From NCBI GenBank assembly GCA_051313645.2, contig JBNRSN020000028.1:65038001-65102000 (forward strand): a stretch of DNA of 64,000 nt. Direction: 5' to 3'. The stretch is from Centroscyllium fabricii (lineage: Eukaryota). The translations under genes were made by a program, and so were the position numbers. Position 1 is the stretch's first letter. Each line of letters starts with the position of its first letter. The notes under the pieces were generated by a model. It was not told the DNA's origin. It worked only from the letters and a program-made list of their open reading frames with translations, and did not search any database. This document shows positions 6,410 to 35,509 of the stretch, one piece after another.

Positions 6410-6487
6410 GAACCCCCCCCTTAAGGGACGCCACCTGACGTCCCCAAAACCCAAACCGCCGAAAACCGGGTTGGCGGGGAGGAGGAA

Positions 6488-10917: not shown

Positions 10918-10934
10918 GATAGGTCGGAGTGTTC

Positions 10935-11506: not shown

Positions 11507-11512
11507 CCCTAC

Positions 11513-11909: not shown

Positions 11910-13389
11910 TGTAGGACTCTCAAAATTCCCACATTTCCCAAGTTATTATTAAGGGACCTAAAGGACAAGTTATCAATAAAGTGACCCCTGAAGGGAATGG
12001 CTTTTGGACATCATGGCAATACCTGCAAGGTTAAAGTAGGGCCCTGCAGACATGATGTCAAGTTCAAAAGCTTAAAACTTGGCATGCCTGGGCCTGTAGG
12101 ACACAGCTTTAGAAACCAGACAACTGGATGAGACAGAATAAACATTCTTCCCTTTTAACAAATCAACTCAGGAAAAGACTTAATCTTGCACAAACCTAAA
12201 GCCCATCAAAACTATGCAGAAATAATTGCTTACAGTTCAAACTAGCTACCAAGCCAGGATGATACCAAATAACATTATGCATAACAAACACCCAAGACAT
12301 TAAAGCCATTTAGCAATGAGATAACTGCCCCAAAACCAGTTAAGGTGAATGGCTATAATCACCTTAATGAGTTTGCCAAAAATCAGACAAAGAATTAACC
12401 CTGATTTGGTGCGCAGATAACAAACTCAAAAACAGTATAACTGTAGGCCCCCTCATAACCAAGGAAGCATTTTCGAGTGGAAGCATTCGGGAAGCATGCT
12501 AGCTAGCGACACGACACCAGAAGGAACCGAGTGAAGCCAACAGGAAGGCTCACGCAACATCACGGTGAGAGGGCACGGTGGGGCAGGCTCGACCGAAGAC
12601 AACAAGTTCACAACTGCAGCTCTACATGAGGACTGACCACAAGCACCACGGTAACAAAGGGCCAGAAAAACGATACCTTCAGATCATTACCACTACACAG
12701 GTAATGATCTCGGCCACCACGACCATGCTGAAACCGAAGACCACCAACCGAAAACCAACTGCAACAAAACTCAACAACCAGACCACCACCGGAAGAACAA
12801 AACCTGAAGTTTTCCACTCTACAAGCTAAAGTACCCAACAAAGACTTTATTCTCCCTATTTCTAACTGAGAAAAGTGGGTACTCACCAGACAAATCCACA
12901 ACTGTGCCCAACCGCATCAGCGGACTCCACCAAACTGAAAAACCTTCGCAGATTCTAAGACTAGTAACACTTGGAGATGGCAGGCCCCAAAAACGCAACT
13001 GGCTTAACTGACAGGATTCGAACTGTCAAGTTGGTGAGCATGATCCCTGGCCCTTTTAGTACAATTTAGTTAGATATTGGGGGTGGGACAGGGTCGGGGC
13101 ATTATTAATGTGATTGTTTTCCCTCATTGTGCTGTGTGTTCCCCATTCCTGATTAAGTGTACTCTCGAATGTCTGTAACTATTACAGTAATCTAGGTGTA
13201 ATTTTTCAATGTTATAATTTTATTGTGACTCTAATAAAACACAGTTTTCTTGCACCAAACCAGTTGTCTGCTCCAATTTTGTATCACAGCCTGCACCCAA
13301 GTCCAGAGTCTAGAGCCTAAGGGGTGTGGGAGCGATTCAAACCGCTCAGACAGTCAGAGGCAAAGCTGACCCACAGGCCACCCCCTACA
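11910..13389 (+). repeat. ERV-B 5' LTR (about 1.48 kb)
   Basis: Direct repeat of 34028-35505 with scattered substitutions and indels. AATAAA at about 13234. Confidence 0.95.
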
Positions 13390-13393
13390 GAAA

Positions 13394-13413
13394 TGGTGAC
13401 CGCGGCAGGACTC
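13394..13413 (+). promoter_or_regulatory. Primer-binding site, tRNA-Arg-like
   Basis: TGGTGACCGCGGCAGGACTC begins 4 nt after the LTR. It matches, from memory, the complement of a vertebrate tRNA-Arg 3' end (TGGCGACCGCGGCAGGACTC) with one CpG-type change. Confidence 0.8.
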
Positions 13414-13464
13414 TGGCAACAGGGGTGTGATACAGTAGGCACTGATTCGGAAGAGAACATTTTA

Positions 13465-15191
13465 ATGGAAGAAAGGATTTCAAATTATGTTTTCAGTAAA
13501 GTGAATATCACCAAGAAGTGGATCACTAATCTGTTAAAGGCTGAGCGTCCAGTAGATGCTGCGGCTAAGTGGACAGAAGGGAAGGATCACAAGAAATCCA
13601 TAGGGAAATCAGTCTGGCTGATGTGCTTCAAGAAACAGGTCCAGCTTTTGGGCAGGATCATTGAGGTACAGGCAGCTGAGATACGGGAGTCAGCCCTGGA
13701 AGCCCAAGCAAGGGCTCCAGCAGGGGAGAGGTTACTGGCAGGATTTAAGGCTCTGAACAAGGAAAGGGTGCAGTTACTGGGGGAGCATAAGACCAGGCAG
13801 GAGTATTTACAGTGTCAGGTGAGTTTGTGGAAAACGAATGCCCGCCTAGCAAGACAAGTAAGAGAGCAGGAGGAGAATGTAAAAGACATATAGGCAGCCT
13901 ATAAGATAGCGAGCGCACAGGGGTTTGAGGATGCAGATCATGGCCCTTGCCAGAAACAGATAGAGAATCTTAGCCTTGCTCTAAGGAAGGCAAAATACAT
14001 GGTGTGCCTCATAAGCCTGAGTGCAGCCCAGGTCGACTTTACAGGGAAACTGGGGAGAATGGTTCAGACACCATTGGCAGTGCCAAGGGATGACCTGGTT
14101 GAAAAACAGGAGGACACACGACCACCACCCGTAGCGCCAAGTTTCAGCAAAGTCTGGCAGCAAGTGGGGTGGAGTTAGGGGTAGATGCTGAGGTGGAAAA
14201 ACCCCCGCAAGAGAGGCTGGGACCGGGGCCGATGTGCCCGGCCCGGCAGCAAAGGTTTGGCCCACCCGCTGATAACGGGGATGAGGGACCCCTTCAAAAC
14301 CATTTTGTAGTTCCCCACGGCACCCAACAGCTTAGGGCTATGGTAACCTATATAACAAAACTCACAGCAAATGGGGACCCCTCGGTCCACTTCAGGGAAG
14401 TGGAACAGGCAGCAAGCATCAACGAGTGCGATGATGCTGAACAGGCCAAAATGCTGCTATTCTCCCTGGCGAGTAAGCTCTTCCAGCCCCTCTCTGACCA
14501 GTGTCAGAGGGGACAGAGCAAGTGTGGGGAACTCAGGGAGGAAGTTTTTGAGGCCATGGGGATGAATGAAGGAAGTCCTTTCTCCCGGGTGGAGGAAACA
14601 GTGCAGCTCACAGGGGAAACCCTGCAGGTTTTCGCAGACAGGTTGTGGCCGGTGTATAGGAGTGCCTGTAATGGGGCACCTAACCGGGCTAACCTGGACC
14701 AGGATCAGCTGGCCCACTGGCTCCATTGCCTGGGGGCAAACAGCTTGCCATAGGTCAGGGCCAAGGCAGAAATGTGGTTTGACCCAAAGCATCCCCTGAC
14801 TACAGAACAGATAGCGGTCAGACAATTGACCCTAGCTTCCTGGAATGGTAAGGGAACCGATGAACACTCGCCTAAAGGGAAGGTGCATGAAATGAAACCT
14901 GGCCAGGGTTGGAAGGGGTAGCATCAGGAAGGGAATAACCCTTCCAGCACAAAGCTTAACTGTTATGGGTGTGGGAAGGATGGACACTGGAGGAAGGAGT
15001 GTAGAAATCCTTGGAACGATAACAAGGGAAAGGATTCCTCAGCCCCAGCCCAAAAGACAGAGACAAGAATCCCTCCCACCACGGTCGAGTCATTTTTGGA
15101 CCACATAAGGACCCTATTGACTGGCCCAGGGAAGGTAGCAGCCATTACCGGTGCTCTGACCCCATCGGCCCCATCTAACCCACCGACCTGA
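13465..15191 (+). pseudogene. gag: ERV-B gag: N-terminal coiled coil, capsid, CCHC zinc knuckle
   Basis: Starts MEERISNY with a long heptad-rich region. Capsid-like GDPSVHFREVE and QLTGETLQVFADRL. CYGCGKDGHWRKEC at 14961. Internal stops and frameshifts. Confidence 0.85.
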
Positions 15192-16334
15192 CTAGAGTCA
15201 GCGCAGCCTGTTTACCTGTGTTCCCTTAAGTACGACTTATGGAAGAGACCTCTCGTTGAGATGGAGGTAGAAGAGGTAAAAGAGACCTGTCTGTTGGACA
15301 CGGGAGCATCATGCACCATGATCCATTCAGCTAACCCCACCACCTCACCTCTATGTAATGGGGTCCCATACAGCCTGTCGGGATTCACAGGTAAAGAACA
15401 GGCTGGCTCATTTTCCATCCCGCTGTCCATTCATTTAGGAACACTCTGCTCTAAGTGGACCTGTATCCTAATGAAGTGGGAAGTGGAGGGTGGGAAAGGG
15501 ATCCTGGATCCAACTTTATTGTAGGCCACAGGATCCTAGTGGATTTAAGAAATCACTGCCTATGGGGGGTGACTACAGGAAAGGAAGGCAGAGTAGTAGC
15601 CATGCCAGGGAAACAGGGGAAGGGGACCCTGTGCACCATGAAGCCTAAAGAGGGTTATAATCTCAAACTCATGGTCAGTAATACCCGAAGGGAGTTCCAG
15701 GCATTTGTGCAAGCCCACCTAGCCACATTTGCCACACACAAGCACGACTGTGTGAGTGTCAATGGGTTCAAGGTCAGTGTGGATGGGAACCCTATGGCCC
15801 GACCACAAAAGCAGTATAACTTCCCCAGGGAAGCGGAGCCAGCCATGGAAGCAGCCATGTCCTCCTTAGTGTAACAGGGAGTCCTGAGACCGATAGCCAC
15901 CCACGTAAACTCTCCATTGTGGCTGGTTAGAAAACCGAACAACTCCTAGAGGGCCACAGTGGACTGTCGGGTGCTCAACAGTAACATCCCAGCCTGTGCA
16001 CCCATGGTAGCAGCAGTTGCCGACCTGATAGGAAGTAACCCAGCATCCGCAACCACTTTCACAGTGCTGGATATTTCCAACAGGTTTTGGTCCATCCCTT
16101 TATGGAGTGAGGGTTAGCACAAGGTTGCCTTTACTTTTAAAGGGCAACAGTACACCTGGAACTGTTTGCCTCAGGTCTTCCACAATAGCCCTAGCATTTT
16201 CCACCAATGTATGGCAAACAGGTTAAATGGCTTCAGCCAGCCCAGGCAGCTGGTACAGTAGGTGGATGACCTGCTACTCTTCATGGATTCGAGAGAGGAG
16301 CATGGCTCACTACTAACCGAACTGCTGGAACTGC
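15192..16334 (+). pseudogene. pol: ERV-B pol segment 1: protease and RT
   Basis: Motifs LLDTGAS, NSPLWLVRKP, VLDISNRFWSIPL, LPQVFHNSPSIFHQ and LVQ*VDDLLL (YVDD with a stop). Confidence 0.9.
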
Positions 16335-16641
16335 TGTGGTAATCATATTACCATTGTATATAGTTGAGTTACACTACAGACCAGCATGTATAGTGACTGG
16401 GTGCACTGTATATAGTATTGTATAAGGACACTGTCGCGAGGTCAGGTCAGCCACACCTCTAACTCCTCCCCTCAGGTGAGAGCCTTATAGGTGAGGTCTG
16501 ACCTGCCCCCATTCATTCTGTACTCGATGTTCGACTGGAGGCTAGCTCCATTCTAAAGTGATTAAAAGCCTATAGTTAAGGTAACTACTCGTCTTTGTCT
16601 TATTGACGATACGTCAATTTAAATCACTTTAATTTTTCGAA

Positions 16642-18054
16642 ATGGAGAGCGGCGCTGTGAAGCCCAAAAAGCTGGATATTAATCCACAGGAACCAGACGC
16701 CGCCAACACGTTTGAACATTGGTTCAGCGTTGTTGAGGCCTACATGGCGGCCGCCAAGGCGACGACCGATGGGGACAAATTACACGTCCTCTCGTCCAGG
16801 ATCACCAGCCGGGGGTACTCCTTCATCCGTGGCACCACAACGTACGTAGAGGCCGTGGAGAAACTGAAGCCATGCTACGTGCGCCCGGTCCACTCGGTCT
16901 ATGCCAGACACGTGCTGGCGACCAGACAACAGCGGCTCGGCGAGTCGAACGAACAGTATCTGTTGGCGCTTCAAGCCCTCGCCCGGGCCTGTGACTGCCA
17001 GCCACGAACGGCGCAGGAGGAGACGAATCTCCTCGTTCGAGATGCTTACGTGACAGGAATCAGGTCCAGCCAGGCCCGCCAGCGGTTGCTGGAAAAAGAG
17101 ACTTTATCACTGGAGGAGGCGATCTCCATCTCTAACGCAGAGGATGGAGCACGCCACAGGCTAGAGGCGTATAGCGGCCAAGGCCCACAAGACACCCTCG
17201 ATCCCTGGGCGGCCCCACGACAGGTCGAGAACCCCACGATGGCAGTGGCAGCTGCGAAGACGCCGTCGGACAGAAAATGTTACTTCTGCGGCAAGGGACA
17301 GCATCCGCGAGCGAAATGCCCCGCGAGGACCGCGGCCTGTGAGAGATGTGGCAAAAAGGGACACTACGCCAGGGCCTGCAAATCGGCCCCAGCGCCCAGC
17401 TCCAGACACAACAGCGTGGCCTGCGAGAGCTCCAACGTCATCCCATGGCCTAAGGTAAGCTGCTGTTGCAGCGCGACCCAGCAGCGGTCCGGGGGTAGAT
17501 TACAGGCGCCCCCGTCTCCCACCCCTATACGGCAGAGGCCGGCCGCGCACACAGCACGGGCACTGCCACGCCAAAGACGGCCGCGGCCGGCCATGGGTGA
17601 CTCCCCAACGCCGGCATCTCGCCCAGCGCGGTCCGCTGCATGCGAATCATGGGGGCCGCCAACTCGGCCACCGCGGTCCGCCGCGTGCGAGCCACGGGCA
17701 CCGCCATCGCGTCCACCGCGGCCCGCCGCGTGCGAACCATGTGCACCGCCATCGCGTCCACCGCGGCCCGCCGCGTGCGAATCACGGGCGCCGCCATCTC
17801 GTCTTCAGCGGCCAGCCATGTGCGACTCCCCGGCGCCGCCATCTACTCTTCAGCGGCCAGCCATGTGCGACTCCCCGGCGCCGCCAACTTGTCTTCAACG
17901 GTCAGCCATGTGCGACCCCCCGGCGCCGCCACCTTGTCCACTGCGGTCGGCCGCGTGCGAACCATGGGCGACGCCATCTTGTGCACGGCCCCAGCTAGCG
18001 GAGGGCCCCCACACACACACACACTTCGGCCTCAGCCATTGTCGACCAGGCTAG
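16642..18054 (+). CDS. gag: Gypsy Gag with two zinc knuckles and a C-terminal 15-aa repeat tract
   Basis: RQQRLGES, CYFCGKGQHPRAKC and CERCGKKGHYARAC. Confidence 0.85.
   Translation: MESGAVKPKKLDINPQEPDAANTFEHWFSVVEAYMAAAKATTDGDKLHVLSSRITSRGYSFIRGTTTYVEAVEKLKPCYVRPVHSVYARHVLATRQQRLGESNEQYLLALQALARACDCQPRTAQEETNLLVRDAYVTGIRSSQARQRLLEKETLSLEEAISISNAEDGARHRLEAYSGQGPQDTLDPWAAPRQVENPTMAVAAAKTPSDRKCYFCGKGQHPRAKCPARTAACERCGKKGHYARACKSAPAPSSRHNSVACESSNVIPWPKVSCCCSATQQRSGGRLQAPPSPTPIRQRPAAHTARALPRQRRPRPAMGDSPTPASRPARSAACESWGPPTRPPRSAACEPRAPPSRPPRPAACEPCAPPSRPPRPAACESRAPPSRLQRPAMCDSPAPPSTLQRPAMCDSPAPPTCLQRSAMCDPPAPPPCPLRSAACEPWATPSCARPQLAEGPHTHTHFGLSHCRPG
17625..17990 (+). repeat. 45-bp GC-rich tandem repeat (about 8 units) encoding (R/P)xAxC(E/D)xxAPPxxx
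   Basis: Repeated ccgcgtgcga...gccgccatct units. Confidence 0.85.
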
Positions 18055-18076
18055 GCCGCACACCCTATCAAATTCC

Positions 18077-20923
18077 ATGATGGGGATTAAAGTTAACGGC
18101 CACATCACCAACTGCCTGTTCGACACCGGAAGCACAGAGAGCTTCATTCACCCCGACACAGTGCAGCGCTACGCACTGCAGACCCTGCCCACGCACTACC
18201 AAATCTCCCTTGCTTCAAAGTCCCACACGGCGGACGTCACCGGCTATTGCTCCGTCACGCTCACGGTCAGGGACTGGGTGTACCGTAATTTTAAACTGTA
18301 CATCCTCCAGCAGTTGTGCGCACCAGTCTTACTGGGACTGGATTTCCAGCGCAACCTGAAGAGCGTGACAATGGAGTTCGGCGGGACCCTGGCTCCCCTC
18401 GCCGTCAGTAGCCGGGACAATCCCTTCCTAAAGCGGAGCCCGACTTGCGGCCTATCCACCCTGAAATTCGACCCCCCCTCGCTGTTCGCCAATCTCGACC
18501 CCAACTGCAAACCCATTGCTACCAAGAGTCGGCGTTACAGTGCGGGGGACCGGGCATTTATCAGGTCGGAAGTTGGGCGTATGCTGCAGGAGGGGATAAT
18601 TGAAGCCAGCACCAGCCCCTGGCGGGCCCAGGTCGTAGTGGTTAAGACTGGCGAGAAACTGCAGATGGTGATCGATTACAGCCAGACCATTAACCGCTAC
18701 ACCGCGCTCGACGCCTACCCCCTTCCCTGCATCTCGGACATGGTTAACCAGATCGCCCAGTATAAGGTCTTCTCAACAATCGACCTTAAGTCGGCGTATC
18801 ACCAACTCCCGATCCGGAAAGCCGACCGCCAGTACACTGCCTTCGAGGCGAACGGTCGGCTCTACCACTTCTTCCGGGTCCCCTTCGGCGTGACCAACGG
18901 AGTGTCGGTATTCCAAAGGGAGATGGACCGTATGGTTGACCAGAACGGGTTGCAAGCCACTTTCCCCTACCTGGACAACGTGACCATCTGCGGCCATGAC
19001 CAGCAGGACCACGATGCCAACCTGGCCAAATTCCTCCACACGGCGAAACGGCTCGATCTCACTTACAATAAAGACAAGTGCGTCTTTAGTACAGACCGGC
19101 TCGCCATCCTCGGATACGTGGTGGAAAACGGGGTCCTCGGCCCCGACCCACAGCGTATGCGTCCCTTACAGGAACTGCCCCTACCTCACAACCCCAAAGC
19201 CCTGAGGAGATGTCTGGGATTTTTCTCCTATTACGCGCAATGGGTTCCCCAGTTCGCGGATAAGGCCAGACCGCTCCTCAAGGCTGACGTCTTCCCCCTC
19301 TCGGTAGAAGCCCAAAAGGCGTTCACCCTGATTAAGTAAGATATTATCAAGGCGACCATGCACGCCGTTGATGAGTCCATCCCTTTCCAGGTGGAGAGTG
19401 ACGCTTCGGACTTTGCCCTTGCCGCCACCCTGAATCAGGCAGGCAGGCCCATAGCGTTTTTCTCCCGCACCCTACAGGGACCCGAAACTCGCCACTCTGC
19501 AGTGGAAAAGGAGGCCCAGGCCATCGTGGAGGCCGTGCGCTACTGGCGTCATTACCAGGCCGGTAAGTGTTTTACCCTGCTCACCGACCAACGGTCGGTC
19601 GCGTTTATGTTTAACAATAAGCAAAAGGGTAAAATCAAGAATGATAAGATCCTGCGGTGGCGGATCGAGCTCTCGACTTACGAGTACGACATTCTTTACC
19701 GTCCAGGCAAACTCAATGAACCCCCGGACGCACTGTCCAGGGGAACGTGTGCCAGTGCCCAGCTAGACCGGCTGAAGGAACTCCACGATCGCCTCTGCCA
19801 CCCGGGTATCACCAGACTTGCCCATTTCGTTAAATCCCGTAGCCTCCCCATCTCCATCACAGAGATCAAGGCTATGAACCGAGAGTGCCCTGTTTGCGCC
19901 GAGTGCAAACCCCAATTTTACAGGCCAGACACGGCGTACCTCAATAAGGCCACCCGCCCCTTTGAACGTCTAAGCGTGGACTTCAAAGGCCCCCTCCCCT
20001 CCACCGACCGCAACTCGTACTTCCTCACGGTCGTGGACGAGTTCTCCTGCTTCCCCTTCGCCTTCGCCTTCCCCTGCCCAGATATGACGAGCGCAACAGT
20101 GATAAGACACTTCACCACGCTGTTCGCCTTTTTCGATCTCCCCAGCTACATCCATAGCGACCGGGGGTCGTCGTTCATGAGCGACGAACTGCGTCAATTT
20201 CTGCTTCAGAAAGGGTTTGCCTCAAGCAGAACGACCAGTTACAACCCCTGGGGGAACGGCCAGGTAGAAAGGGAGAACGGGATCATCTGGAAGGCGGTCA
20301 GCCTGGCCCTGAAGTCCAGAGGCCTTCCAGTGTCCCGTTGGCAGGTAGTCCTCCCAGACGCGCTCCACTCCATCCGCTCTCTGCTGTGTACGGCTACAAA
20401 TGCCACACCTCATGATTTATTATTTTCATTCCCCAGGAAGTCGACTTCGGGGACGGCACTCCCACCGTGGCTCACGATGCCAGGGCCAGTCTTACTTAGG
20501 AAACATGTCCGCGGTCATAAGACCGACCCCCTGGTGGAAAAGGTGCAGCTGCTGCATGCCAACCCGCAGTACGCCTACGTGCAGTTCCCGGACGGGCGCA
20601 AGGACACAGTTTCCATCAGGGACCTAGCGCCCGCCGGGAGCACTACAGCAGAGCCCCTGGTCGAGCCTCAGCCTGACCAGCCACCGCCTACCGACCACTG
20701 GCTTACACACCAACCACCACCTACCGGATACTGGCCTATGCACATGCACACACCGGGGCCCCCGACACTATCAGCTGAGGACCCAGGACCAGACGCCACA
20801 CCGCAGGCACAGTCGCCGCAGGACCCGGCCCCGCCGCCACAACCGGCACCAGCGCCGCTACCGGAACCTCGGCGGTCCTCACGGCAGACACGACCACCGG
20901 AGAGACTCATCGAGAACTGTTGA
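18077..20923 (+). pseudogene. pol: Gypsy pol PR-RT-RH-IN, interrupted by one in-frame stop at about 19337
   Basis: Motifs FDTGS, YLDN, ESDASD, HHCC, SDRG and NGQVER. ORFs 18077-19339 and 19358-20923 are in the same frame. Confidence 0.9.
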
Positions 20924-21291
20924 TCTGGACTCATACAAATCTTTTTGCACTAACCGTTTCTGTCCATTCACCCCGCCGGACTCAATTTTCAAAGAAGGGG
21001 TGAATGTGGTAATCATATTACCATTGTATATAGTTGAGTTACACTACAGACCAGCATGTATAGTGACTGGGTGCACTGTATATAGTATTGTATAAGGACA
21101 CTGTCGCGAGGTCAGGTCAGTCACACCTCTAACTCCTCCCCTCAGGTGAGAGCCTTATAGGTGAGGTCTGACCTGCCCCCATTCATTCTGTACACGATGT
21201 TCGACTGGAGGCTAGCTCCATTCTAAAGTGATTAAAAGCCTATAGTTAAGGTAACTACTCGTCTTTGTCTTATTGACGATACATCAACTGC

Positions 21292-23964: not shown

Positions 23965-26900
23965 AACATAAGAAATAGGAGCAGGAGTAGGCCAATTGGC
24001 CCCTCAAGCCCACTCCGCCACTCAACAAGATCATGGCTGATCTGATCCTAATCTCAATTTTACTTTCACTCTCCATCCTGCCCAAACCCATGTGATCACC
24101 CGGGAGAGGCGAAAAACCAGATAAAAAACCCAGTGACCAATTTGGGAGAAAAAATCTGGGAAATTCCTCTCCAACCCATCTAGGCGATAGAAAACTGGTC
24201 CAGGTGATCACATGGCCGATCTGAACCTAGCCTTAGGTCCACTTACCTGCCCGCTCACCATAACCCCTAATACCCTTTACTTCCAGGAAAAACTGTCTAT
24301 CTCTGTTTTAAATTTATTCAATGTAGTAGCTTCCACAGCTCTCTGGGGCAGCAAATTCCACAGCCCCACCACCCTCTGAGTGAAGAAGTTTCTCCTTATC
24401 TCAGTTTTGAAATGGCAGTCCCTTATTTTAAGATTATGCCCCCGAGTCCTAGTTTCACCCACCATTGGGAACATCCTCACCGCATCCACCTGATCAAGCC
24501 CGATCTGGAATTCCTCACGGTAATGTGCAGACCCTTTTACCTGCCTCGGGAATTCACGGCCGTCATCTTCACTGCGGTCTACATCCCTCCCGGTGCTAAT
24601 GCCAAACTGGCACTAAAGGATCTCCACAGGGCCATCAGCGAGCAGCAGACCGCGCATCCGGAGGGAGCCTTTATCGTGGCGGGGGACTTCAACCACACTA
24701 ACCTCAAATCCGTACTCCTGAAATTCCAGCAGAATGTCTCCTGCCCCACGAGGGGCGAGAACACGCTGGACCAGGTTTACACCAACATTGCAGAGGCTTA
24801 CAAGGCCATCCCCTGCCCCCACCTCAGGAAGTCAGACCACCTTTCACTGTTCCTTGCCCCAGCATACAAACCACTCATCAAAAGGGTGACAGTTCCAGTC
24901 AAATCAGTTAGGGTATGGCCAGAAGGGGCAGTCTCAGAGCTACAAGACTGCTTCGAACGCACTGAATGGAGCATGTTTGCTCACACGGACATCGAGGAAT
25001 ACGCATCCACATTACTATTCTACATCAACAGCTGCGTTGAGGTGGCCACTACCCAAAAAAACATCAAGACATAACCCAACCAGAAACCCTGGATGAACAG
25101 GGAGGTCCGCTCGCTGCTGAAAGCATGCGACGCAGCTTTCAGATCTGGTGACATGGTGGCTTACAGCACAGCCAGGGCCAACCTAAAGAGGGGAATCAGG
25201 TCTGCCAAACGCAATCAGGCACTGAAGATAGAGGAACACTTCTACAACAACTCGGAACCTCGGCATATGTGGCAAGGCATCCAGTCTATCACGGACTACA
25301 AGTGCAAGAACACCAGCTCCCTGACCAGCGATGCCTCCCTACCGGAGGAACTCAACAACTTCTACGCTTGCTTCGACAGGGACAACAGGGAGCCAGCCAC
25401 CAAAGTCTTGCCATCTCCAGATGACCAGTTACTAATACTGTCCTCCTCCGACATAAGAGGTGTGTTACATGGAGTGAACGCACAGAAGGCCGCGGGTCCT
25501 GACGGCATCCCTGGCCAGGCACTCAAAGACTGTGCTGACCAATTGGCTGAGGTCTTCACCGACATTTTCAACCTGTCACTAGCTAAGGCAGCTCTCCCTA
25601 CCTGCTTCAAGACCGCCACCATCATCCCTGTGCCCAAGAAAACAGCTGTGACGTGCCTGAACGACTACCGCCCTGTCGCACTCACACCCATAATCATGAA
25701 GTGTTTTGAGCGGCTGGTCCTGGCCCACATCAAAGCCAGCATCCCCACCGCCCTCGACCAATAGCAGTTCACATATCGAGGAAACAGATCAATGGAAGAT
25801 ACAATCATAACGGCTCTTCACTCTGCACTAAACCACCTGGATAGCAAAGAGACCTATATCAGAATGCTGTTTATAGACTACAGCTCAGCATTCAACACTA
25901 TCGTCCCCAGCAAGCTGTCTACCAAACTCCTCACCCTTGGCCTGAACACCTCCCTCTGCAACTGGATCCTGGGCTTCCTAACCAACAGACCACAGTCTGT
26001 GAAGTTAGGCAACCTCACCTCCCCCCGCCTTACCCGGAACACGGGGGCCCCACAAGGCTGTCTGCTGAGCCCCCTCCTCTACTCCCTCGTTATCCACAAC
26101 TGTGTGGCTGTTCACGGCTCCACCAAGATCATCAAGTTTGTGGACGACACCACGGTGGTTGGCCAGATCACCAACAATGATGAGTAAGCCTACAGGGATG
26201 AGATTCAGTGCCTTGTGGGATGGTGTGCCGACAACAACCTGGCACTAAACACCAAGAAAACCAAGGAGATCATAGTGGACTTCCGGAAGACTAAAGGCAG
26301 AAGACACACCCCAATCTTCATCCAAGGGGCTGAGGTGGAAAGGGTGTCCAGCTTCAAGTTCCTCGGGGTCCACATCTCAGAAGACCTCTTCTGGTCACTA
26401 AACACCTCCTCGCTGATAAAGAAGGCCCAACAGCGCCTATACTTCCTAAGGAAGCTGAAAAAGACCAAGCTGACAGCCGGCATCCTCACCAACTTCTACC
26501 GCTGCACAATTGAGAGCATACTGACAAACTGCATCACAGTCTGGTATGGAAACTGTACCATCTCACACCGGAAGGCCCTGCAGCGGGTAGTCAAAACTGC
26601 CCAACGAATCACCGGCACCCAGCTACCATCAATTGAAAGCACCTACCTGAAACGCTGCCTACGGAGGTCTCAGAACATTATTAAAGACCCCACACACCCC
26701 AGCCATAGTCTATTCACCCCCCTGCCCTCTGGGAGACGCTACAGATCAATTTGCACCCGCACGACCAGATTCAAGAACAGCTTCTTCCCCAGGGCTGTCA
26801 GTCTCCTGAACTCTAACAAAAAACTCCATTATCTGCACACCTGAAATGTACTTTATTGTATGCAACCCATGTAACTTATTTGCGCTACTCTCAGGAGCGG

Positions 26901-27110
26901 CGAGTCTATGTTTCGTTGTATTGTACTAGTACACTGCAATGACAATAAAATTGAATTGAATTGAATTGAATTTTAGCCCTTTCACAATCTTATATGTTTC
27001 AATACGATCGCCTCTCATTCTTCTGAACTCCAATGAGTAGAGGCCCAATCTACTCAACCTCTCATCATATGTCAGCCCCCTCATCCCCGGAATTAACCTA
27101 GTGAACCTTT
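23965..27110 (-). mobile_element. 5'-truncated CR1 LINE fragment, split by a Rex1/Babar insertion
   Basis: Minus-strand C-terminal peptides QRFTRLIPGMRGLTYDERL and RRNFFTQRVV. CR1 tail gaacataagaaataggagcaggagtaggcc on the plus strand. Confidence 0.85.
24502..26974 (+). mobile_element. 5'-truncated Rex1/Babar-type non-LTR retrotransposon (EN-RT pseudogene)
   Basis: CRPFYLPREF..VYIPP, AGDFN, NDYRPVALT, PQG, KFVDD (YADD-like) and FLGVHI. (TTGAA)n tail. AGCCC TSD. Confidence 0.85.
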
Positions 27111-27119
27111 GGGACAATC

Positions 27120-27568
27120 CCCCACTTATCTGAGACTTAGACGAGGTGGGACCTTTGGGCAGAGGCCCTCAGCCTGCAGCAGAGGTGGGATGTGTGGGCA
27201 AGGACCCCCAGCCTGCAGCATCAGGCTACGTAGAGGTTCCTGTCCCTAGCACACGTTTAGGAGTGGTAATGCTTGAGGATAAAAATCCCCAGCCAGCAGT
27301 AGTGCAAAGTTTACAGACTGCACAGGAGGGGGCAGTGGTTCGTGTTAAACCCCCACCAACCAAAGTCCCTAGAAGGTCCCCACGAACGCCACGGCCAAAG
27401 AAACCATGGTCACTGGCTCCCCAGCTTAAAAGGGCAGCCTCTCAAGTCAGGAATCAATCTGAGGACAGAGGTCCCCAGCCAGCAGCCACAAGCTGCAAGG
27501 GACCAAAAGTACAGGACAGGGCAGCCTCACCGAAGGGAGTTGTGTGCTGCAACCCGAACGGGGATTAG
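27120..27568 (+). other. ERV-B post-integrase repetitive extension (xxxPQPAA repeats)
   Basis: Repeats GRGPQPAA, GKDPQPAA, EDKNPQPAV and EDRGPQPAA. A similar unit (EDRSPQSAA) lies before the CR1 insertion at about 23865. Confidence 0.6.
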
Positions 27569-27809
27569 CCTGGCCACTCGGAGACGGGCAGCAAATGCAC
27601 ATAGCTTCTGTTATTTAATTTTGGGATCGTTAAGTTTGGGTGTTTTAGTTTAATTTTAAACAAGGTGATTGGTAGTTTAAGTATTATTGTTTCAAGAGTG
27701 TTTGTATTGAGTCGAGGTCGCAAGACCCGACTATGCTTTACCCCAGCCAGCGAATCTTCTCGGGACCTGGCTATATGCTCTTACGTCTCCTTACAGAAGG
27801 GATTCCAAA

Positions 27810-28731
27810 ATGAAGGGGGACATGCTCCTATTTGCCCTGATAGGAAGGAACACTGGGAGGTGAGGAGACGTGGAGGACTCCCACATTTATGGGTGCTCAG
27901 GAGAAAGAGCATCGGTTATGACTGCTGGGGGAGGCGAACGAGGCATGGAGGAGCTCGCTATCTATTCCCATGAGGGAAGATGGCCAGGATGGCTGGGATC
28001 TAACTCCACCCGGTACTCCAGCCAGACCGGGTTCACCTACGGGGAAGTCTCCCTCCCCTACCCCAGCATACGGATTGTGGCCACACGGATTGGGGTCACT
28101 GAGGGGAATTGCGTGTGCCTGACCTGCAGAGGACAGATTCCCCTGGGAAGGATGTGGTGGCTCAGGAAACTGAACAGAGACACGGAGGACCGTACAGCTG
28201 ATTGGGAATGACTGGGGAACGACACCTACTGGACGATCACAGGGACCCAAGGGGGAGTTAGTGTATGCTGGGATAAGTGGTGGGAGTCAGAACAGGGAAT
28301 TTATGTCTGCATGTGGGGTCTCAGAGGGTCTGCCCCACGGGCATATCCATCATATTTTCCGCAGCATGGCAGGATAAGGGGAAGGGGGTGGAATGGGATT
28401 CCCACCTATACACTTGCATAGTCCCACACTCACCAGCCCCAGTTAAAATCACTGTGGCATGCGCCCAAAAACCCCTGACCACGACCCAGACAGCAAGGAC
28501 ATACATAGAGAGGTGCCCTGCCACCACCAAGGGACTAGGATGGACTGGTGCTAGTGCCGACCGAAAAGGTGCTATACCGGGGGTACACTATGCGGTAGCT
28601 TCCGTGATTCTAAAAAACCTTACAGAGGTACACTTACCTGAGTGGTGCCCCAAGGAGACAGAACAGCTATACCAGGCCCTGTTAAGAGAAATGTTTAGGA
28701 AATGCTACGAGACAAAACAGAACTGTACATT
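27810..28731 (+). pseudogene. env: ERV-B env segment 1: signal peptide, putative Ig-like domain, start of F2-like region
   Basis: Starts MKGDMLLFALIG after acceptor ctccttacag. Contains HEGRWPGWLG, GVTEGNCVCLTC...WW...EQGIYVC and VHYAVASVILKNLTEVHLP. Collinear with ERV-A env. Confidence 0.8.
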
Positions 28732-31700
28732 GGTGCCTCCCTGGTGCCAGGGTCCGGGATGTCACGGATCGGCTGCAGGACATCTTGAGGGGGGAGGGGA
28801 ACCAGGTAGAAGTTGTGGTCCACATTGGCACCAACGACATAGGAAAAAAAGGGGACGAGGTCCTGCAAAGAGAATTTAGGGAGCTGGGTAAAAAGCTAAA
28901 AAGCAGGACCCCAAAGGTTGTAATCTCTGGATTACTCCCAGTGCCACGAGCTAGTGAGTATAGGAACCGTAAGATAGAGCAGCTTAATTCGTGGCTAAAA
29001 AGTTGGTGTAGGAAGGAGGGTTTCAGCTTTTTGGACAATTGGTCTTGCTTCTGGGGTAAGTGGAACCTGTACATGCCGGACGGGTTGCACCTGAACCGGA
29101 ATGGGACCAATATCCTTGCGGGAAGGTTTGATAGTCGGGTTGGGGTGGGTTTAAACTAAATTGGCAGGGGGAGGGGACCCAGAGTGAAGGCATAAAGGGT
29201 AGGGGAATACAACCTAATAAAGGAAAGCAGACTAGACAGCAAAACAAGGTAGTATTAGGTCAGAGAATGAAAGGTATATATTTTAACGCAAGGAGTCTGA
29301 CTAACAAGGTGGATGAGTTAAAGGTATTGGTTGACACATGGGAATATGATATAGTAGCTATCACGGAGACGTGGCTGAAGGAGGGGCAGGAATGGCAGCT
29401 AAATATTCCGGGGTATAGAATTTTCAGGCGGGACAGAGACGAGGGAAAAAGGGGAGGGGGGTAGCGATACTGATTAAGGATTCAATCACAGCCATCAGGC
29501 GGGTCGACCTAATGGATGATTCCTCAAACGAGGCACTATGGGTGGAGGTAAAAAATAAAAAGGGGGGTGCACCTTACTGGGAGTATATTATAGACCACCA
29601 AACAGTAAAGGGGAGATGGAGGGTAAGATATGTGAGCAAATCACGAAGATAAGCGAAAATAACAAAGTAATAATATTAGGGGACTTTAATTTCCCCAACA
29701 TCAACTGGGATTGTCAGAGTGTGAGGGGCACGGAAGGTTCAGCATTCTTAAAATGCAGCCAAGAGAGTTTTTTGAAGCAATATGTTGGGTCACCTACAAG
29801 GGGGGGGGCGGTACTAGACCTAATACTTGGGAACGAAGACGGGCAGATAGAGGAGGTAACAGTGGGGGAGCACTTCGGGGATAGCGACCACAATTCAGTT
29901 AGTTTCAAGATTGTAATAGAGAAGGATAAAAATGGACCAGGGGTAAAAGTACTAAACTGGGGGAAGGCGGATTTCATTAAAATTAGGCGCGATGTAGCCG
30001 CAGTAGACTGGGGCCATCTTCTCAGAGGAAGATCTGCATCAGAGCAGTGGGAGGCCTTCAAAGGGAAGGTCGGGAAGATACAGGAGGAACATGTTCCTGC
30101 AAAAATCAAGGGCGGGGGAGGTAAACAAAGGGAACCTTGGATGTCTAGGGATATATGTAAATTAATGAAGAAAAAAAGGGGGGCCTTCAATGAATATAAA
30201 CGGCTAAAAACTGAGGAGGCGCTAGGGGAGTATAAGAAGTATAGGGGGGAATTAAAGAAGGAGATAAGAAAAGCCAAGAGGGGTCATGAGATTGCAATGG
30301 CCGGCAAAATCAAGGATAAACCTAAGGCATTTTACAGTTATATAAAAAACAAAAGGATCACGAGGGAAAGAGTGGGGCCCATTAAGGACGATAGCGGAAA
30401 GCTGTGCGTCGAGCCCGAGGCGGTGGGGGAGGTACTAAACGAATTTTTCTCTTCAGTATTCACAAGAGAGAGGGACGGAACCAACATCGTAATCGGACAG
30501 AGTGTAGGGGGGGTAATTGAGGATATTACCATTACAAGGGAAGAAGTACTAGAAATCTTGGGAAGCTTAAAGGTAGACAAATCACCAGGGCTGGACGCGA
30601 TGTTCCCCAGGCTGCTGTTCGAGGCCAGGGAAGAGCTTGCGGGCCCCCTGTCTCAAATTTTCAGGTCCTCTCTCGCGTCAGGGGAGGTACCCGAGGACTG
30701 GAGAACGGCTAATGTAGTACCCCTGTTTAAAAAGGGTAGTAGGGACAAACCGGGTAACTATAGGCCAATCAGTCTTACATCTGTAGTGGGGAAAGTAATG
30801 GAAAAAATTCTGAGGGACAAAATCAGTCTGCATTTGGAAAGGCAGGGTCTGATAAGAGATAGTCAACATGGCTTCGTCAAAGGTAAGTCGTGCCTAACTA
30901 ATCTCTTGGAATTCTTCGAAGAGGTAACAAAAAGGGTGGATGAAGGGAGTACGGTCGACGTGGTGTATATGGACTTCAGCAAGGCTTTTGATAAAGTCCC
31001 ACATAGGAGACTGATAACAAAGGTAAAAGCACATGGGATACAGGGCAACGTGGCACAGTGGATTCAAAATTGGCTGGGGGACAGGAGACAAAGGGTAATG
31101 GTAGAGGGCTGCTTCTGTGACTGGAAACCAGTAACCAGCGGTGTCCCCCAAGGATCGGTTTTGGGACCCTTACTGTTTCTAGTATACATTAATGATTTGG
31201 ACACAGGAGTAGGGGGTACGATCAGCAAATTTGCTGATGATACGAAAATTGGAAGGGTGGTAAATAACGATGAAGATAGTAAAAGGCTCCAGGAAGATAT
31301 AAATGTAATGGTTAGTTGGGCAGAAAAATGGCAAATGGAGTTCAACCCAGAGAAATGCGAGGTCATACAATTCGGCAGACCAAATGGGGTAAGGGAATAT
31401 ACCATGAACAAAAAAACGTTAGGTAGGACCGAGGAACAGAGGGACCTGGGGGTACAGGTGCACAGCTCCCTGAAGGTTGCTGGACACGTAAACAAGGTGG
31501 TTAAGAAGGCATACGGAATTCTGGCCTTTATTAACCAGGGCATAGTGTACAAAAGTAGGGAGGTAATGTTAAACTTGTATAACACGCTGGTGAGACCTCA
31601 GCTGGAGTACTGTGTGCAGTTCTGGTCACCGCACTTCAGGAAGGATGTGGTTGCCCTGGAGAGGGTGCAGAGAAGGTTTACCAGGATGATACCTGGTCTG

Positions 31701-32162
31701 GGGGACTTATGCTACGAGGAAAGGCTGGACAGGCTGGGGTTGTTTGCCTTGGAGAAGAGAAGATTGAGGGGTGACATGATCGAGGTATACAGGATCATGA
31801 GAGGACACGATAAGGTGGATAAAGGGGCATTGTTTCCCTTGGTGGGAGAGTCAAGTACCAGGGGACATAGATTCAAGATTAGGGGGGGGAGGTTTAGGGG
31901 GGAGGTAAGGAGAAATTTCTTTACTCAGAGGGTGGTGGAAGTGTGGAACTCCCTGCCTGTAAGGGTGGTGGAGGCAGAAACCATCGCAACATTTAAAAAA
32001 TATTTGGACCAGCACATGAAGGACCGTAACATACAGGGTTATGGGCCAGATGCGGGCAAATGGGGTTAGTATAGTGAGGAGTTTCCTGGGCCAGTGCGGA
32101 CTGGATGGGCCGAATGGCCTTTATCCGCACTGTAAAGTTTCTATGATTCTATGATTCTATGA
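28732..32162 (+). mobile_element. CR1 LINE: ORF1 esterase part plus ORF2
   Basis: ORF1 SGNH motifs VHIGTND and DGLHLN. ORF2 EN motifs YFNARS, ITETW and GDFN, RT motif FADD. (ATTCTATG)n tail. Confidence 0.95.
29267..32069 (+). pseudogene. CR1 ORF2 (APE endonuclease-RT), frameshifted in EN, with an 817-aa open RT portion
   Basis: ORFs 29267-29464 and 29616-32069. Confidence 0.9.
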
Positions 32163-32690
32163 TTGCACACACTGAATACTTCAGCAATGCAGGGAGACAA
32201 AGAAGGGCAACCTGGAATGATGTTTTCACTGCATATAATACAGGATCTTTTGTTATAAACAGCCTAGTTGACATAGAATTGCAGACACAGATAAATGGTT
32301 TAAAAACACAATTACGAAAAATCTTAATGGAGGAAAATACAGTAGTAGGCTCACATGAGGACCAAGCTATGATGGTCCATTTAAAAGAGATTATTGCTGA
32401 GCTGGAGAGGCATGCAAAGGCAGCAAATGCACTCATTTGGGAAGACAGGAATGCTTCAGACCAGGCTGCACAGAACGAGGTGTGCGTACTCTACGGGGCA
32501 TGGTTGCTAGGCGAGGGCCAGAGTAACCTGGAGGATTTAAAGCAAGGTTTAGTCCCCTCCTGGATCAGCAACAAGCACCTTGCAGCCCTCTACCCATTTG
32601 AGAATTCATTAAGCCCATGTCAGCTCCACCTAGCCTCTAAGGCTTACCCTGTCCCAGTAGATTGTGGGCGCTCCAATCACACTGTCATGG
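32163..32690 (+). pseudogene. env: ERV-B env segment 2: furin site and F1-like N-terminus
   Basis: GRQRRATWNDVFTAYNTGSFVINSLVDIELQTQINGLKTQL...NEVCVLYGAWLLGEG...VPSWISNKHL. Confidence 0.85.
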
Positions 32691-33237
32691 CCTCCAACAT
32701 GCTGAAGGTCTAACTTTCTCCCTAGGGTGCCCAAGATTAGTGGCCACAAAACTTACCTTCCAGCTGCTTCCAGTGCTTCACAGATTACGCGCTACATAGC
32801 TGTCAAGAGCCTGCCAATGAAGCAATGCACCTGTCAATCATTGAGTTTCTGTTAGTTTCTGTTGACAGTGGATTCTGACATCAGAATTCACTGAAACCAC
32901 AAACAAACAGAACAGACTAGTTAGAGCTGTCAATTATCGAGTTGCGGTTACAATCTGTTGACAGTGGATTATGATGTCACAATGCCCTGAAGCCACAGAA
33001 AGAAAAACACCAGACCACTTAGAGCTGCCAATCATCAGCTCTGCTGCTTACACAGTGGGAAGGCCGCTGGCTTCCTAAGTAAAATCAATCAATTGGCAGG
33101 GGCTTCCCACACTTGGAGATTTAATTGGCCAATTGAGCCAAAATTGTGTGGGGCTTCCACACCCTTTACAAAGTGGAAAGATAAAGTGATCAGCAGGGAA
33201 CCCACCCATTTCTCACATCCTGAGGAAAATTGACCCC
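32691..33237. mobile_element. Right-hand remnant of a Harbinger-type MITE with internal repeats; left end and adjacent env deleted
   Basis: Ends ggaaaattgacccc followed by ATT. Internal agagctgtcaat...tctgttgacagtggatt repeats. Confidence 0.6.
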
Positions 33238-33720
33238 ATTGTGTCACCACAAGTGCGCCCCACTGCCAGCTTGGCCAGCCTAACTGGTGTCTGGTAAGTG
33301 ACAGCAGTTCAAGTGGCCCAGGAATGGAGAGTCACAATTCCTGAACTGTAACAGAAAAGTTTACCAACCTGCAAAAATATGTAGCACATTTCGGCCATGA
33401 AATATCTCCTCTACTGGAACATCTTACCAAGTTACTCAAAGCTGTAGAGATATCACAAAAGCATTTCTGCACTTTAGAACAGAAAACAAGATAGAGGGAG
33501 AGATTCAATATATCACAGTCCTACCCTGATAGGACATTTTTGAAAACATAGATGTCCCTTCATGGGTTAGAATGGCTTCCAAAATCCTCGTGGTTTGCCA
33601 GCTGGGAATATTATTGTACCTGTTGTGCATTCAGTACAAGAGAAAAGGCAAAGCACTAGAATGCCAAAACAAAAGGATTTGGAAGAAACATTATGTTAAG
33701 GTGGAGAGATATACCTGTTT
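33238..33720 (+). pseudogene. env: ERV-B env segment 3: C-terminal ectodomain, transmembrane helix, basic tail
   Basis: CVTT..., EHLTKLLKAVEISQKHF and VPSWVRMASKILVVCQLGILLYLLCIQYKRK. Confidence 0.75.
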
Positions 33721-34027
33721 AAATCTTTTTATTTTCGTGTTTCTGAATAAGGATTGTTGTTTTTTTACTAAAGACTTTGATGTGTTTTTTGTAATAAAGA
33801 TATATGTGTACCAAGTGGTGCAGGGGTTTTGGAACCCCCTCCATGCTTGGATGTGTGTAAATAACTTTTTTGCTTATGTACGCTGCATTTTTAAAGAATG
33901 GGGAATGTATGTGTCATGGGATTTTAGACAGGTAATTACAGGGAACATTGGCTATGGAGGGTCAGGAATTGTGCTCACCTTTGAAAGTATGCTATTTGAA
34001 GCGAGTTTCAGTATCACAGTGGGGTAA

Positions 34028-35505
34028 TGTAGGATTCTCAAAATTCCCACATTTCCCAAGTTATTGATAAAGGGAACCCTGAAGGGAATGGCTTTTGGAC
34101 TTTATGGAATACCTGCAAGGTTAAAGTAGGGCCCTGCAGACATGATGTCAAGTTCAAAAGCTTAAAACTTGGCATCCCTGGGCCTGTAGGACGCAGCTTT
34201 AGAAACTAGGATGAAATGGAATATGCATTCTTCCCTTTTAACAAATCAACTGAGGAAAATACTTAATCTTGCACAAACCTAAAGCCCATCAAAACTATGC
34301 ATAAATAATCGCTTACAGTTCGAACTAGCTACCAAGCCAGGAAGACACCAATTAACATTATGCATAACAAGCACCCAAGACATTAAAGCCATTTAGCAAT
34401 GAGACAACTGCCCCAAAACCAATTAAGGTGAATGGCTATAATCACCTTAACGAGTTCGCCAAAAATCGGACAAAGAACTAACCCTGATTTGGTGCACAGA
34501 TAAAGAACTCAAAAACCCATAACCAAGGAAGTATTTTCAAGATAAAGCAATTGGGAAGCATGCTAGCTATTGACACGACACCAGAAGGAACCGAGTGAAG
34601 CCAACAGGAAGGCTCACGCAACATTACGGTGAGAGGGCACGGTGGGGCAGGCTCGACCGAAGACAACAAGTTCACAACTGCAGCTCTACATGAGGACTGA
34701 CCACAAGCACCACGCTAACAAAGGGCCGTAAAAACAATACCTTCAGATCATTACCACTACACAGGTAATGATCTCGGCCACCACGACCATGCTGAAACCG
34801 AAGACCACCAAACGAAAACCAACTGCAACAAAACTCAACAACCAGACCACCACCGGAAGAACAAAACCTAAAGTGTTCCACTCTACAAGCTAAAGTACCC
34901 AACAAAGACTTTATTCTCCCTATTTCTAATTGAGAAAAGTGGGTACTCACCAGGCAAATCCACAACCGCACCCAACTGCATCAGCGGACTCCGCCGAACT
35001 GAAGAACCTTTGCAGATTCTAAGACTAGTACCACGTGGAGACAGCAGGCCCCAAAGGACACAAAGAGTGAACCCCCAAAACTCAACCGGCTTAACTGATA
35101 TGATTTGAACTGTCAAGAAACCCTTGTTGGTGAGCATGATCCCTGGCCCTTTTAGTACAATTTAGTTAGATATTGGGGGTGGGACAGGGTAGAACATAAT
35201 AAGAACATAAGAAATAGGGGCATTATTAATGTAATTTTTTTCCCTCGTTGTACCGTGTATTCCCCATTCCTCATTAAGTGTACTCTTGAATGTCTGTAAC
35301 TATTGAGTAATCTAAGTGTAATTTTTCAATGTTACAATTTTATTGTGACTCTAATAAAACACAGTTGTCTTGCACCGAATCAGTTGTCCACTCCAATTTT
35401 GTATTGCAGCCTATACCTAAGTCCAGAGTCTAGAACCTAAGGGGTGTGGGAGCAATTCGAACTGCTTAGACAGAGGCAAAGCTGACCCACAGGCCACCCC
35501 CTACA
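34028..35505 (+). repeat. ERV-B 3' LTR
   Basis: Direct repeat of 11910-13389. Confidence 0.95.
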
Positions 35506-35509
35506 CAAT

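What the first reader, a model, noticed from the sequence alone, without database searches (positions are those of the whole stretch)
11910..35505. Reconstructable lokiretrovirus-like provirus in a probable cartilaginous-fish genome
Seen: LTR, PBS, gag (long coiled coil, CA, CCHC), PR, RT (LPQxFHNSP, YVDD), a degenerate RNase H tether plus a second retrovirus-type RNase H, IN, F-like env and LTR. Known: dual RNase H, coiled-coil Gag and F-like Env characterise lokiretroviruses. As I recall (unverified), their reported hosts were lampreys, bony fish, amphibians and reptiles. Inference: the SINE/LINE context suggests a shark or ray, so this may be a new host class or lineage.
Basis: partly seen in the sequence, partly recalled or inferred. 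Interest (0 to 1): 0.85.

Follow-up and report, generated by a model that had tools for sequence, protein, structure and literature searches.

The report
Decayed snakehead-like shark endogenous retrovirus
This is an old, broken retrovirus insertion in a shark genome that belongs with the snakehead-fish retrovirus group rather than the lokiretroviruses, and its envelope gene looks like a paramyxovirus-type fusion protein with an immunoglobulin-like arm, which bears on how retroviruses first got their envelope.

Summary
The provirus is real, with exact ends (11910-35505): 1.48-kb LTRs, 4-bp target duplication, tRNA-Arg primer site, gag, pro, RT, tether plus RNase H, integrase, env. Only 11.5 of 23.6 kb is viral; the rest is nested transposons. 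Every gene is broken. The host is a cartilaginous fish, probably a shark.

It is not a lokiretrovirus. RT falls inside Retroviridae, outside the Loki clade; forcing it with Loki is rejected (p=0.002, 0.0005), with snakehead retrovirus (SnRV) not (p=0.39). Its RT motif matches SnRV, not Loki. The supposed Loki hallmarks are shared with SnRV. SnRV-like ERVs are already known from elephant shark (Han 2015), so the host class is not new.

What remains: this family has an F-like Env with a probable N-terminal Ig-like domain, as SnRV seems to, whereas the elephant-shark member has a gamma-type Env. I found no paper saying so in 10 searches; the scan noted an Ig-like shark/skate Env before on other DNA (e1-7806881). 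My AlphaFold models failed, so the fold rests on language-model evidence. Verdict: new variant of class III (SnRV-like) ERVs.

The parts
11906..11909 (+). left target-site duplication CAAT (repeated at 35506-35509)
11910..13389 (+). 5' LTR, 1480 bp, TG..CA, AATAAA at 13233
13394..13411 (+). primer binding site, tRNA-Arg(TCG), 17 of 18 nt
13465..15191 (+). gag: helical N-terminal half, probable capsid, one CCHC knuckle; one frameshift and three internal stops; ends in a TGA in frame with pro
   Evidence: CA and coiled coil not confirmed
15192..15521 (+). aspartyl protease (LLDTG), followed by a frameshift
   Evidence: RVP E 4e-4
15527..16334 (+). RT, N-terminal part; four stops, one at the catalytic motif
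16335..21286 (+). inserted Ty3/Gypsy LTR element, LTRs 283 bp, K2P 0.011, 5-bp TSD
21287..22735 (+). rest of RT, tether (degenerate RNase H, about 21563-21960) and retroviral RNase H (about 22103-22530); one frameshift, two stops
22774..23965 (+). integrase: HHCC, DDE core, SH3-like end; one frameshift, two stops
23966..27105 (.). inserted repeats: reverse-strand CR1-type tail pieces around a 5'-truncated LINE (24460-26960; Rex1/Babar-like by recalled motifs)
27106..27568 (+). proline-rich tail of pol, contiguous with 23965 in another copy
27810..28711 (+). env N-terminal part: signal-peptide-like start, probable Ig-like domain (about 28060-28320), rest of surface subunit; stops and a frameshift
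28712..32168 (+). inserted CR1-type LINE (esterase ORF1 remnant, ORF2), 97% identical to an inverted copy at 40874-42883
32169..32690 (+). env: RQRR cleavage site (32195-32206), fusion peptide and heptad region of an F1-like subunit
32691..33236 (.). non-viral 546 bp with a 96-bp tandem duplication, in place of about 110 env codons
33237..33700 (+). env C-terminal part with transmembrane helix (about 33580-33640), frameshifted
34028..35505 (+). 3' LTR, 1478 bp; K2P distance to the 5' LTR 0.071 over 1421 sites
2581..4645 (+). pol (tether, RNase H, IN) of an older relative, 72% identical
5193..37540 (+). env of that older relative in pieces: 5193-5837, 11507-11909, 35506-36170, 37027-37540; split by a Gypsy element (5838-11506) and by the provirus described here

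Best explanation
A defective endogenous retrovirus of the class III, snakehead-retrovirus-related grade (clade Huo of Xu et al. 2018), from a multicopy family in a shark genome. When active it most likely worked as a simple enveloped retrovirus: LTR-driven RNA, tRNA-Arg priming, Gag-Pol by read-through of the in-frame TGA at the end of gag (inferred, as for SnRV), RT with an inert tether and a second RNase H, integration with a 4-bp duplication, and entry by a furin-cleaved class I fusion protein of the paramyxovirus-F type, with an Ig-like N-terminal domain probably binding a receptor (inferred). It inserted into the env of an older relative, decayed, and collected at least four later insertions. 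It now does nothing as a virus.
For: Shown: boundaries, TSD, PBS, domain order; uninterrupted layout in a second, also defective copy; 55 matches at 75-94% (main ones 79-90%) from 40 scored of 7445 candidates; 10 of 10 fetched pol copies have 2-14 stops. RT tree of 51 rows: Loki 100/99, separate from a 100/98 retrovirus clade holding the element; AU p 0.002 and 0.0005 against union with Loki, 0.39 for union with SnRV; RT identity of the 79% relative P0001 is 42% to SnRV, 34-37% to three Loki-type RTs; LPQGFH occurs 3 times in the Loki supplement (both passages shown are the SnRV row) against CPFGY 71 times. SnRV (L030) has an Arg PBS (anticodon assignment recalled), an in-frame TGA junction, one CCHC. 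CmiERV lineage I shows the same RT motifs, read by eye. Env: Atlas 0.92 to Fusion_gly/Baculo_F clusters, TM 0.55-0.58; Ig_3 E 1e-4 to 0.03 in 4 of 4 copies tested. Host: LDH-A exons 56/58 and 39/40 identical to PDB 1ldm/6ldh (dogfish, recalled); Env 56-79% identical to Pristiophorus japonicus proteins.
Against: A clade of the element with SnRV is not supported, only not rejected: the base of the retrovirus clade is unresolved. Tether and IN are more similar to Loki (88-101 and 201-212 bits) than to SnRV (55 and 129 bits). Gag and Env show no significant sequence match to SnRV Gag or Env. No Pfam Fusion_gly hit; both AlphaFold models had pLDDT about 35 and the fold search gave nothing at E<=0.001. 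Ig hits lie under Pfam's cut-off. The trees lack Odin, ERV-L, CmiERV-I, CGIN1 and the published Loki consensus sequences.
Confidence: 0.85

Rival explanations
1. A lokiretrovirus in a new host class.
For: F-like Env; tether and IN score higher against Loki than SnRV; Loki was found in 0 of 6 chondrichthyan genomes, so it would be new.
Against: RT, tether and IN trees keep it outside Loki; AU rejects; Loki RT motif absent from the element, and 0 exact matches of a degenerate Loki motif in the host genome; Gypsy RNase H domains also outscore SnRV's tether (up to 72 against 34 bits), so that likeness is ancestral; Loki-Bsp Env has a short surface part, with no room for the long N-terminal arm seen here (by eye).
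Confidence: 0.04
2. A lineage of its own near the root of Retroviridae (shark, frog and coelacanth members), distinct from both SnRV and Loki, that has so far been lumped into class III.
For: A 10-row clade with Xenopus, bullfrog and coelacanth proteins has 97/88 support without SnRV; in the IN tree these rows form a grade around the Gypsy/Loki attachment point; Loki-like tether and IN.
Against: Union with SnRV is not rejected; Han 2015 grouped the elephant-shark member with SnRV on whole Pol; shared Arg PBS and Env layout with SnRV.
Confidence: 0.2
3. A recombinant: class III RT joined to a Loki-derived integrase and/or Env.
For: Domain-wise similarities disagree; env exchange is common in anamniote ERVs (10.1101/2021.11.23.469661, parts read); the IN tree groups Loki with three frog/coelacanth relatives at 87-94% bootstrap, unstarred.
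Against: The element's own IN lies on the retrovirus side of a 97/83 branch, away from Loki; tether follows RT.
Confidence: 0.08

Closest known systems
CmiERV lineage I of elephant shark (Han 2015, PMC4422223; main text part 1 and supplement dataset 1 part 1 read)
   Same: Chondrichthyan host; same pre-RT and RT motifs (HKHDCG, LDISNGFWSIP, LPQGFHNSP, read by eye from the DNA); one CCHC; described as clustering with SnRV.
   Different: Its env has the gamma-type ISD and CX6CC motif and its PBS looks like tRNA-Ser (by eye; PBS label recalled); ours has an F-like env and an Arg PBS. Not placed in my tree.
Snakehead retrovirus, SnRV (locus L030/P0038, identified by its RT matching the SnRV row in PMC7947760 dataset S2)
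   Same: RT motif LPQGFHxSPxIFHQ, QYVDD; Arg PBS; in-frame TGA between gag and pol; one CCHC; helical Gag N-terminus; F-like TM by Atlas (0.91-0.92) and a weak Ig hit at the Env N-terminus (V-set E 0.14).
   Different: RT only 42%, IN 36%, tether 26% identical; no detectable Gag or Env sequence match; LTR 1.5 kb; no SnRV-like extra Pol domain or accessory ORFs seen.
Lokiretroviruses (Wang and Han 2021, PMC7947760; parts 1-3 of 4 and supplement parts read)
   Same: gag-pol-env, tether plus RNase H, F-like Env with RxxR site; tether 34-39% and IN 42-45% identical.
   Different: Outside the Loki RT clade; no CPFGYxNSP motif; short PR-RT spacer; long Env surface part with Ig-like domain; no smc gene seen.
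Foamy virus Env (Fernandez et al. 2024, PMC11468914; title, abstract start and keyword passages only)
   Same: A retroviral Env structurally linked to paramyxo/pneumovirus F.
   Different: RT is far from foamy viruses (32-33%; separate 100/100 clade); Gag has a CCHC knuckle; no Env sequence match.
'NYNRIN-like' gene models of Xenopus tropicalis, bullfrog and coelacanth (P0004, P0014, P0005)
   Same: Closest named Pol relatives, RT about 50%, IN 48-50%; the Xenopus model P0003 ends in a weak Ig_3 hit (E 0.06).
   Different: Annotated only as host gene models; not XtERV-S, which has YIDD and dUTPase (PMC8278194 passages).

Membership tests
Lokiretrovirus | RT within the Loki clade, sister to other retroviruses | tested here: not met
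   Loki references were 4-5 database proteins labelled by motif and host
Lokiretrovirus | RT motif C/T-PFGYxNSPAEF | tested here: not met
   element has LPQxFHNSP
Lokiretrovirus | tether plus second RNase H | tested here: met
   shared by all retroviruses, not diagnostic
Lokiretrovirus | Env similar to Mononegavirales F (PF00523) | tested here: inconclusive
   Atlas 0.92 but no Pfam hit and failed folds; SnRV scores alike
Lokiretrovirus | IN in the Loki/CGIN1 group | tested here: not met
   outside the 100/99 Loki group; CGIN1 not available
Class III SnRV-like ERV (clade Huo) | RT inside Retroviridae, outside class I, class II and foamy clades, near SnRV | tested here: met
   excluded from the 98/94 foamy+class I+II clade, as is SnRV
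Class III SnRV-like ERV (clade Huo) | monophyly with SnRV | tested here: inconclusive
   not recovered with support, not rejected (p 0.39)
Class III SnRV-like ERV (clade Huo) | gag and pol in frame, separated by a stop; single CCHC | tested here: met
   PMC2717909 passages
Class III SnRV-like ERV (clade Huo) | coiled-coil Gag N-terminus | tested here: inconclusive
   helical, charged composition, but no coiled-coil family hits
Class III SnRV-like ERV (clade Huo) | grouping with CmiERV-I and ERV-L in a tree | not testable with these tools
   these sequences exist only in paper supplements; motif comparison by eye only
Ty3/Gypsy (Metaviridae) | RT among Gypsy clades, single active RNase H | tested here: not met
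Odin retrotransposons | RT sister to Loki, no env | not tested
   no Odin sequence in hand; an env is present and Loki kinship is rejected
Gamma-type Env | ISD and CX6CC motif in a short TM | tested here: not met
   absent from P0011, P0012, P0195 and window pieces; no match of the env profile to 44 retroviral loci

The most novel reading that the evidence does not exclude
This shark family and its frog and coelacanth relatives form an early branch of Retroviridae that kept a Loki-like tether and integrase and an F-type Env with an Ig-like arm. With SnRV, foamy viruses and Loki also F-like, the F-type fusogen would be the ancestral retroviral envelope, and gamma-type Env a later replacement that also invaded this clade (elephant-shark lineage I). 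That favours the single-origin scenarios among the four left open by Wang and Han.
Probability: 0.3. Interest if true: 0.75.

Novelty: new variant of a known kind. Interest (0 to 1): 0.45.

Why it matters
The Loki host-range claim falls away. What is left is a large, apparently undescribed shark ERV family whose Env type differs from that of its described chondrichthyan relative, and a hint that SnRV's own Env is F-like. Whether retroviruses got their envelope once or several times is open (PMC7947760, PMC9040795); F-like Envs inside class III give a direct test by structural phylogeny. It also warns that F-like Env, dual RNase H and coiled-coil Gag do not diagnose lokiretroviruses. The locus itself is dead DNA.

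Tried and rejected
AlphaFold on P0012, alone and with a 10-row alignment: pLDDT 35-36, unusable; BFVD search of that model: 0 hits at E<=0.001. Env profile against PDB and against 44 retroviral loci: nothing. Pairwise Env and Gag against SnRV: nothing; the Ig-like stretches of the element and SnRV align no better than shuffles (428 of 2000). Globin exon for host class: uninformative. Protein-mode search of the own genome gave no usable answer three times, so no protein-level census, and true Loki elements in this genome were tested only by one exact motif. Sequencing runs: no RNA holder listed, names coded. Hart et al. 1996 on SnRV is not held; its Arg-PBS statement is recalled. P0004 is not XtERV-S and not Loki-Xtr by motif. 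P0140 was wrongly labelled foamy; it groups with L040. Of 95 RT extracts 92 passed the length filter and 51 went into the tree (41 dropped as redundant); AU tests used 28 rows, quick search, LG+G4. Literature: 10 searches; those pairing SnRV or shark ERVs with fusion/paramyxovirus terms returned 0 papers. Subscription papers, Repbase, the last 18 pages of the Loki supplement, the Odin supplements (listed, not read) and bioRxiv supplements were not seen and may describe this family.
Full report
Anatomy. The element runs from 11910 to 35505, starts TGTAGG, ends CCTACA and is flanked by a duplicated CAAT. The LTRs (1480 and 1478 bp) differ by K2P 0.071 over 1421 sites. That is 16 My at the mammalian rate used in PMC7947760 and about 160 My at the tenfold lower rate assumed in PMC4422223; the true rate is unknown. 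Four bases after the 5' LTR lies a primer site matching, at 17 of 18 nt, the 3' end of a tRNA-Arg(TCG) gene of the same genome (ARAGORN called 1 of 5 loci tRNA-Arg). Pfam finds in order a CCHC knuckle, protease, RT, an RT-type RNase H-like domain, a second RNase H, and integrase HHCC and core. By inspection, the first RNase H-like domain lacks the acidic catalytic residues and the second keeps them, so the first is a tether. gag ends in a TGA in frame with pro. All genes are broken: 11 stops over the eight gag-pol stretches counted, several frameshifts, and a stop at the Y of YVDD.

Nesting. Only 11,501 of 23,596 bp are viral. A Gypsy element splits RT, CR1-type pieces with a LINE split the pol tail, a CR1-type LINE splits env, and 546 bp of unrelated DNA replace about 110 env codons. 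A second copy elsewhere in the genome, itself defective, is contiguous across these points, which confirms the layout. The provirus inserted into the env of an older relative of 72-75% identity, which a very young chromodomain Gypsy element also hit. The family is large: 55 matches from 40 scored of 7445 candidates; 10 of 10 pol copies fetched carry 2-14 stops.

Host. The genome has 7.2 Gb. Two LDH-A exons are 56/58 and 39/40 identical to PDB 1ldm/6ldh, the top hits in both searches (these are dogfish structures, recalled). The closest named Env proteins are from the sawshark Pristiophorus japonicus, 56-79% identical. The host is a cartilaginous fish, most likely a shark; I did not go below that level.

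Phylogeny. Wang and Han found Loki in 0 of 6 chondrichthyan genomes, so a shark Loki would be new. But their Loki RTs carry C/T-PFGYxNSP (75 occurrences), while LPQGFH occurs 3 times, the two passages shown being SnRV (first 300 of 318 pages). A search with P0001, a 79%-identical relative, returned an SnRV Pol (P0038, locus L030), Loki-type Pols from Labeo and Synaphobranchus, WEHV-1 and many Gypsy proteins; foamy and other retroviral references came from IMG/VR, labelled by motif. In a 51-row RT tree the five Loki rows form a 100/99 group, and the element lies in the 100/98 group of all other retroviruses, in a 97/88 clade with Xenopus, bullfrog and coelacanth proteins, outside the 98/94 clade of foamy, class I and class II viruses; SnRV sits unresolved at the same level. 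AU tests reject union with Loki (p 0.002; 0.0005 for the wider clade) and do not reject union with SnRV (p 0.39). Against this reading, tether and IN resemble Loki more than SnRV. Trees of both still keep the element outside Loki, and Gypsy RNase H domains also outscore SnRV's tether, so this looks like retained ancestry in a slowly evolving, early branch. A degenerate Loki motif has 0 exact matches in the host genome, a weak negative.

Known relatives. Han 2015 described CmiERV lineage I of elephant shark as clustering with SnRV. Its printed DNA, read by eye, has the same HKHDCG, LDISNGFWSIP and LPQGFHNSP motifs, but an env with the gamma-type ISD and CX6CC motif. Xu et al. 2018 call the SnRV-related clade Huo and report it in all major vertebrate lineages (passages). 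SnRV has a coiled-coil Gag, one zinc finger and stop suppression (passages), and L030 shows an in-frame TGA and an Arg-type PBS (tRNA assignment recalled). So neither the host class nor the hallmarks point to Loki.

Envelope. Env has a signal-peptide-like start at 27810, a surface part of roughly 300 residues, RQRR, a long cysteine-rich subunit and a TM helix. The sawshark homolog P0012 scores 0.92 to Fusion_gly and Baculo_F clusters in the ESM Atlas, with TM 0.55-0.58 to the two best models; shuffled proteins reach 0.9 in 4-10 of 100. The SnRV TM region scores 0.91-0.92 to the same kinds of cluster. By eye, the element, SnRV and Loki-Bsp share the spacing of motifs after the heptad region. 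Pfam, BLAST and my two AlphaFold runs did not confirm the fold, so I put F-type at about 80%. Prompted by an earlier scan note, I found a C..W..Y-x-C module near the N-terminus that hits Ig_3 in 4 of 4 copies tested (E 0.032, 3e-4, 1e-4, 0.024; all under the cut-off), with weak antibody-domain hits in PDB. SnRV Env and the Xenopus model P0003 give weaker Ig hits, though direct similarity to SnRV's is at chance level. Receptor binding by this domain is inference.

Mechanism and verdict. Shown: a provirus with retroviral domain order, integrated with a 4-bp duplication, now dead. Inferred: Arg priming, Gag-Pol read-through, F-type fusion, Ig-mediated attachment. It works like SnRV and fails the Loki membership test. 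The Pol clade is known from Chondrichthyes; the pairing with an F-like, Ig-armed Env was not found in 10 literature searches, of which three aimed at it returned nothing; subscription papers and Repbase were not searchable. Foamy Env is also F-related (PMC11468914, title and abstract start). If SnRV-like, foamy and Loki Envs share one origin, F-type is the ancestral retroviral envelope; I give that about 0.3. New variant of a known kind, interest 0.45.

Papers seen: PMC7947760 parts 1-3 of 4 plus supplement parts 1, 8, 11, 68 and searches; PMC9040795 part 2 of 4; PMC4422223 part 1 of 2 and supplement 1 part 1; PMC12440569 part 1 and passages; 10.1101/2021.11.23.469661 parts 1-2 and passages; keyword passages only of PMC6001957, PMC11089739, PMC2717909, PMC4977317, PMC5210030, PMC10435555, PMC8278194, PMC11468914, 10.1101/2023.10.26.564294, 10.1101/2024.03.25.586437; Hart 1996 not seen.

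Noticed in passing
window 5838-11506 (- strand): Very young Ty3/Gypsy chromovirus-type element: 572-bp LTRs differing at 1 site, open gag (339 aa) and pol (1221 aa, chromodomain).
   Followed up: partly
window 17538-18034: 45-bp tandem repeat (8.4 copies) inside the gag of the nested Gypsy element, read as a Pro/Arg/Ala-rich repeat.
   Followed up: no
window 28712-32168 and 40874-42883: Two CR1-type LINE copies, 97% identical over 2 kb, in inverted orientation about 9 kb apart; ORF1 has a GDSL esterase domain.
   Followed up: no
window 40275-40532, 47168-51598, 48299-51172, 54184-57015, 58996-60718: Further nested Gypsy-type elements and a probable solo LTR (LTR pair 47171/51359, 97%).
   Followed up: no
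window 2023-2329: A 307-bp near-perfect palindrome, possibly a MITE.
   Followed up: no
P0199: A Pristiophorus japonicus gene model named 'protein Niban 1-like' starts with about 250 residues of this family's Env surface and fusion region; a mis-joined model or an exapted exon.
   Followed up: no
L030 6131-9535: SnRV Env appears F-like (Atlas 0.91-0.92) with a weak N-terminal Ig hit; not found stated in the papers searched.
   Followed up: partly
P0014 cluster (24 members): Many full-length 1218-aa Pol proteins of the same clade in bullfrog and leopard frog, annotated NYNRIN-like; suggests a young family there. Env type unknown.
   Followed up: no
G000 C811:24.56-24.73 Mb and C922:4.0-7.9 Mb: Dozens of exact matches to the tRNA-Arg(TCG) 3' motif, many spaced about 1.9 kb apart on C811: probable tandem tRNA gene arrays.
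   Followed up: no
L028 3181-3192: The second copy's 5' LTR is preceded by a purine tract like its PPT and lacks a matching TSD, suggesting a tandem or recombined arrangement.
   Followed up: no
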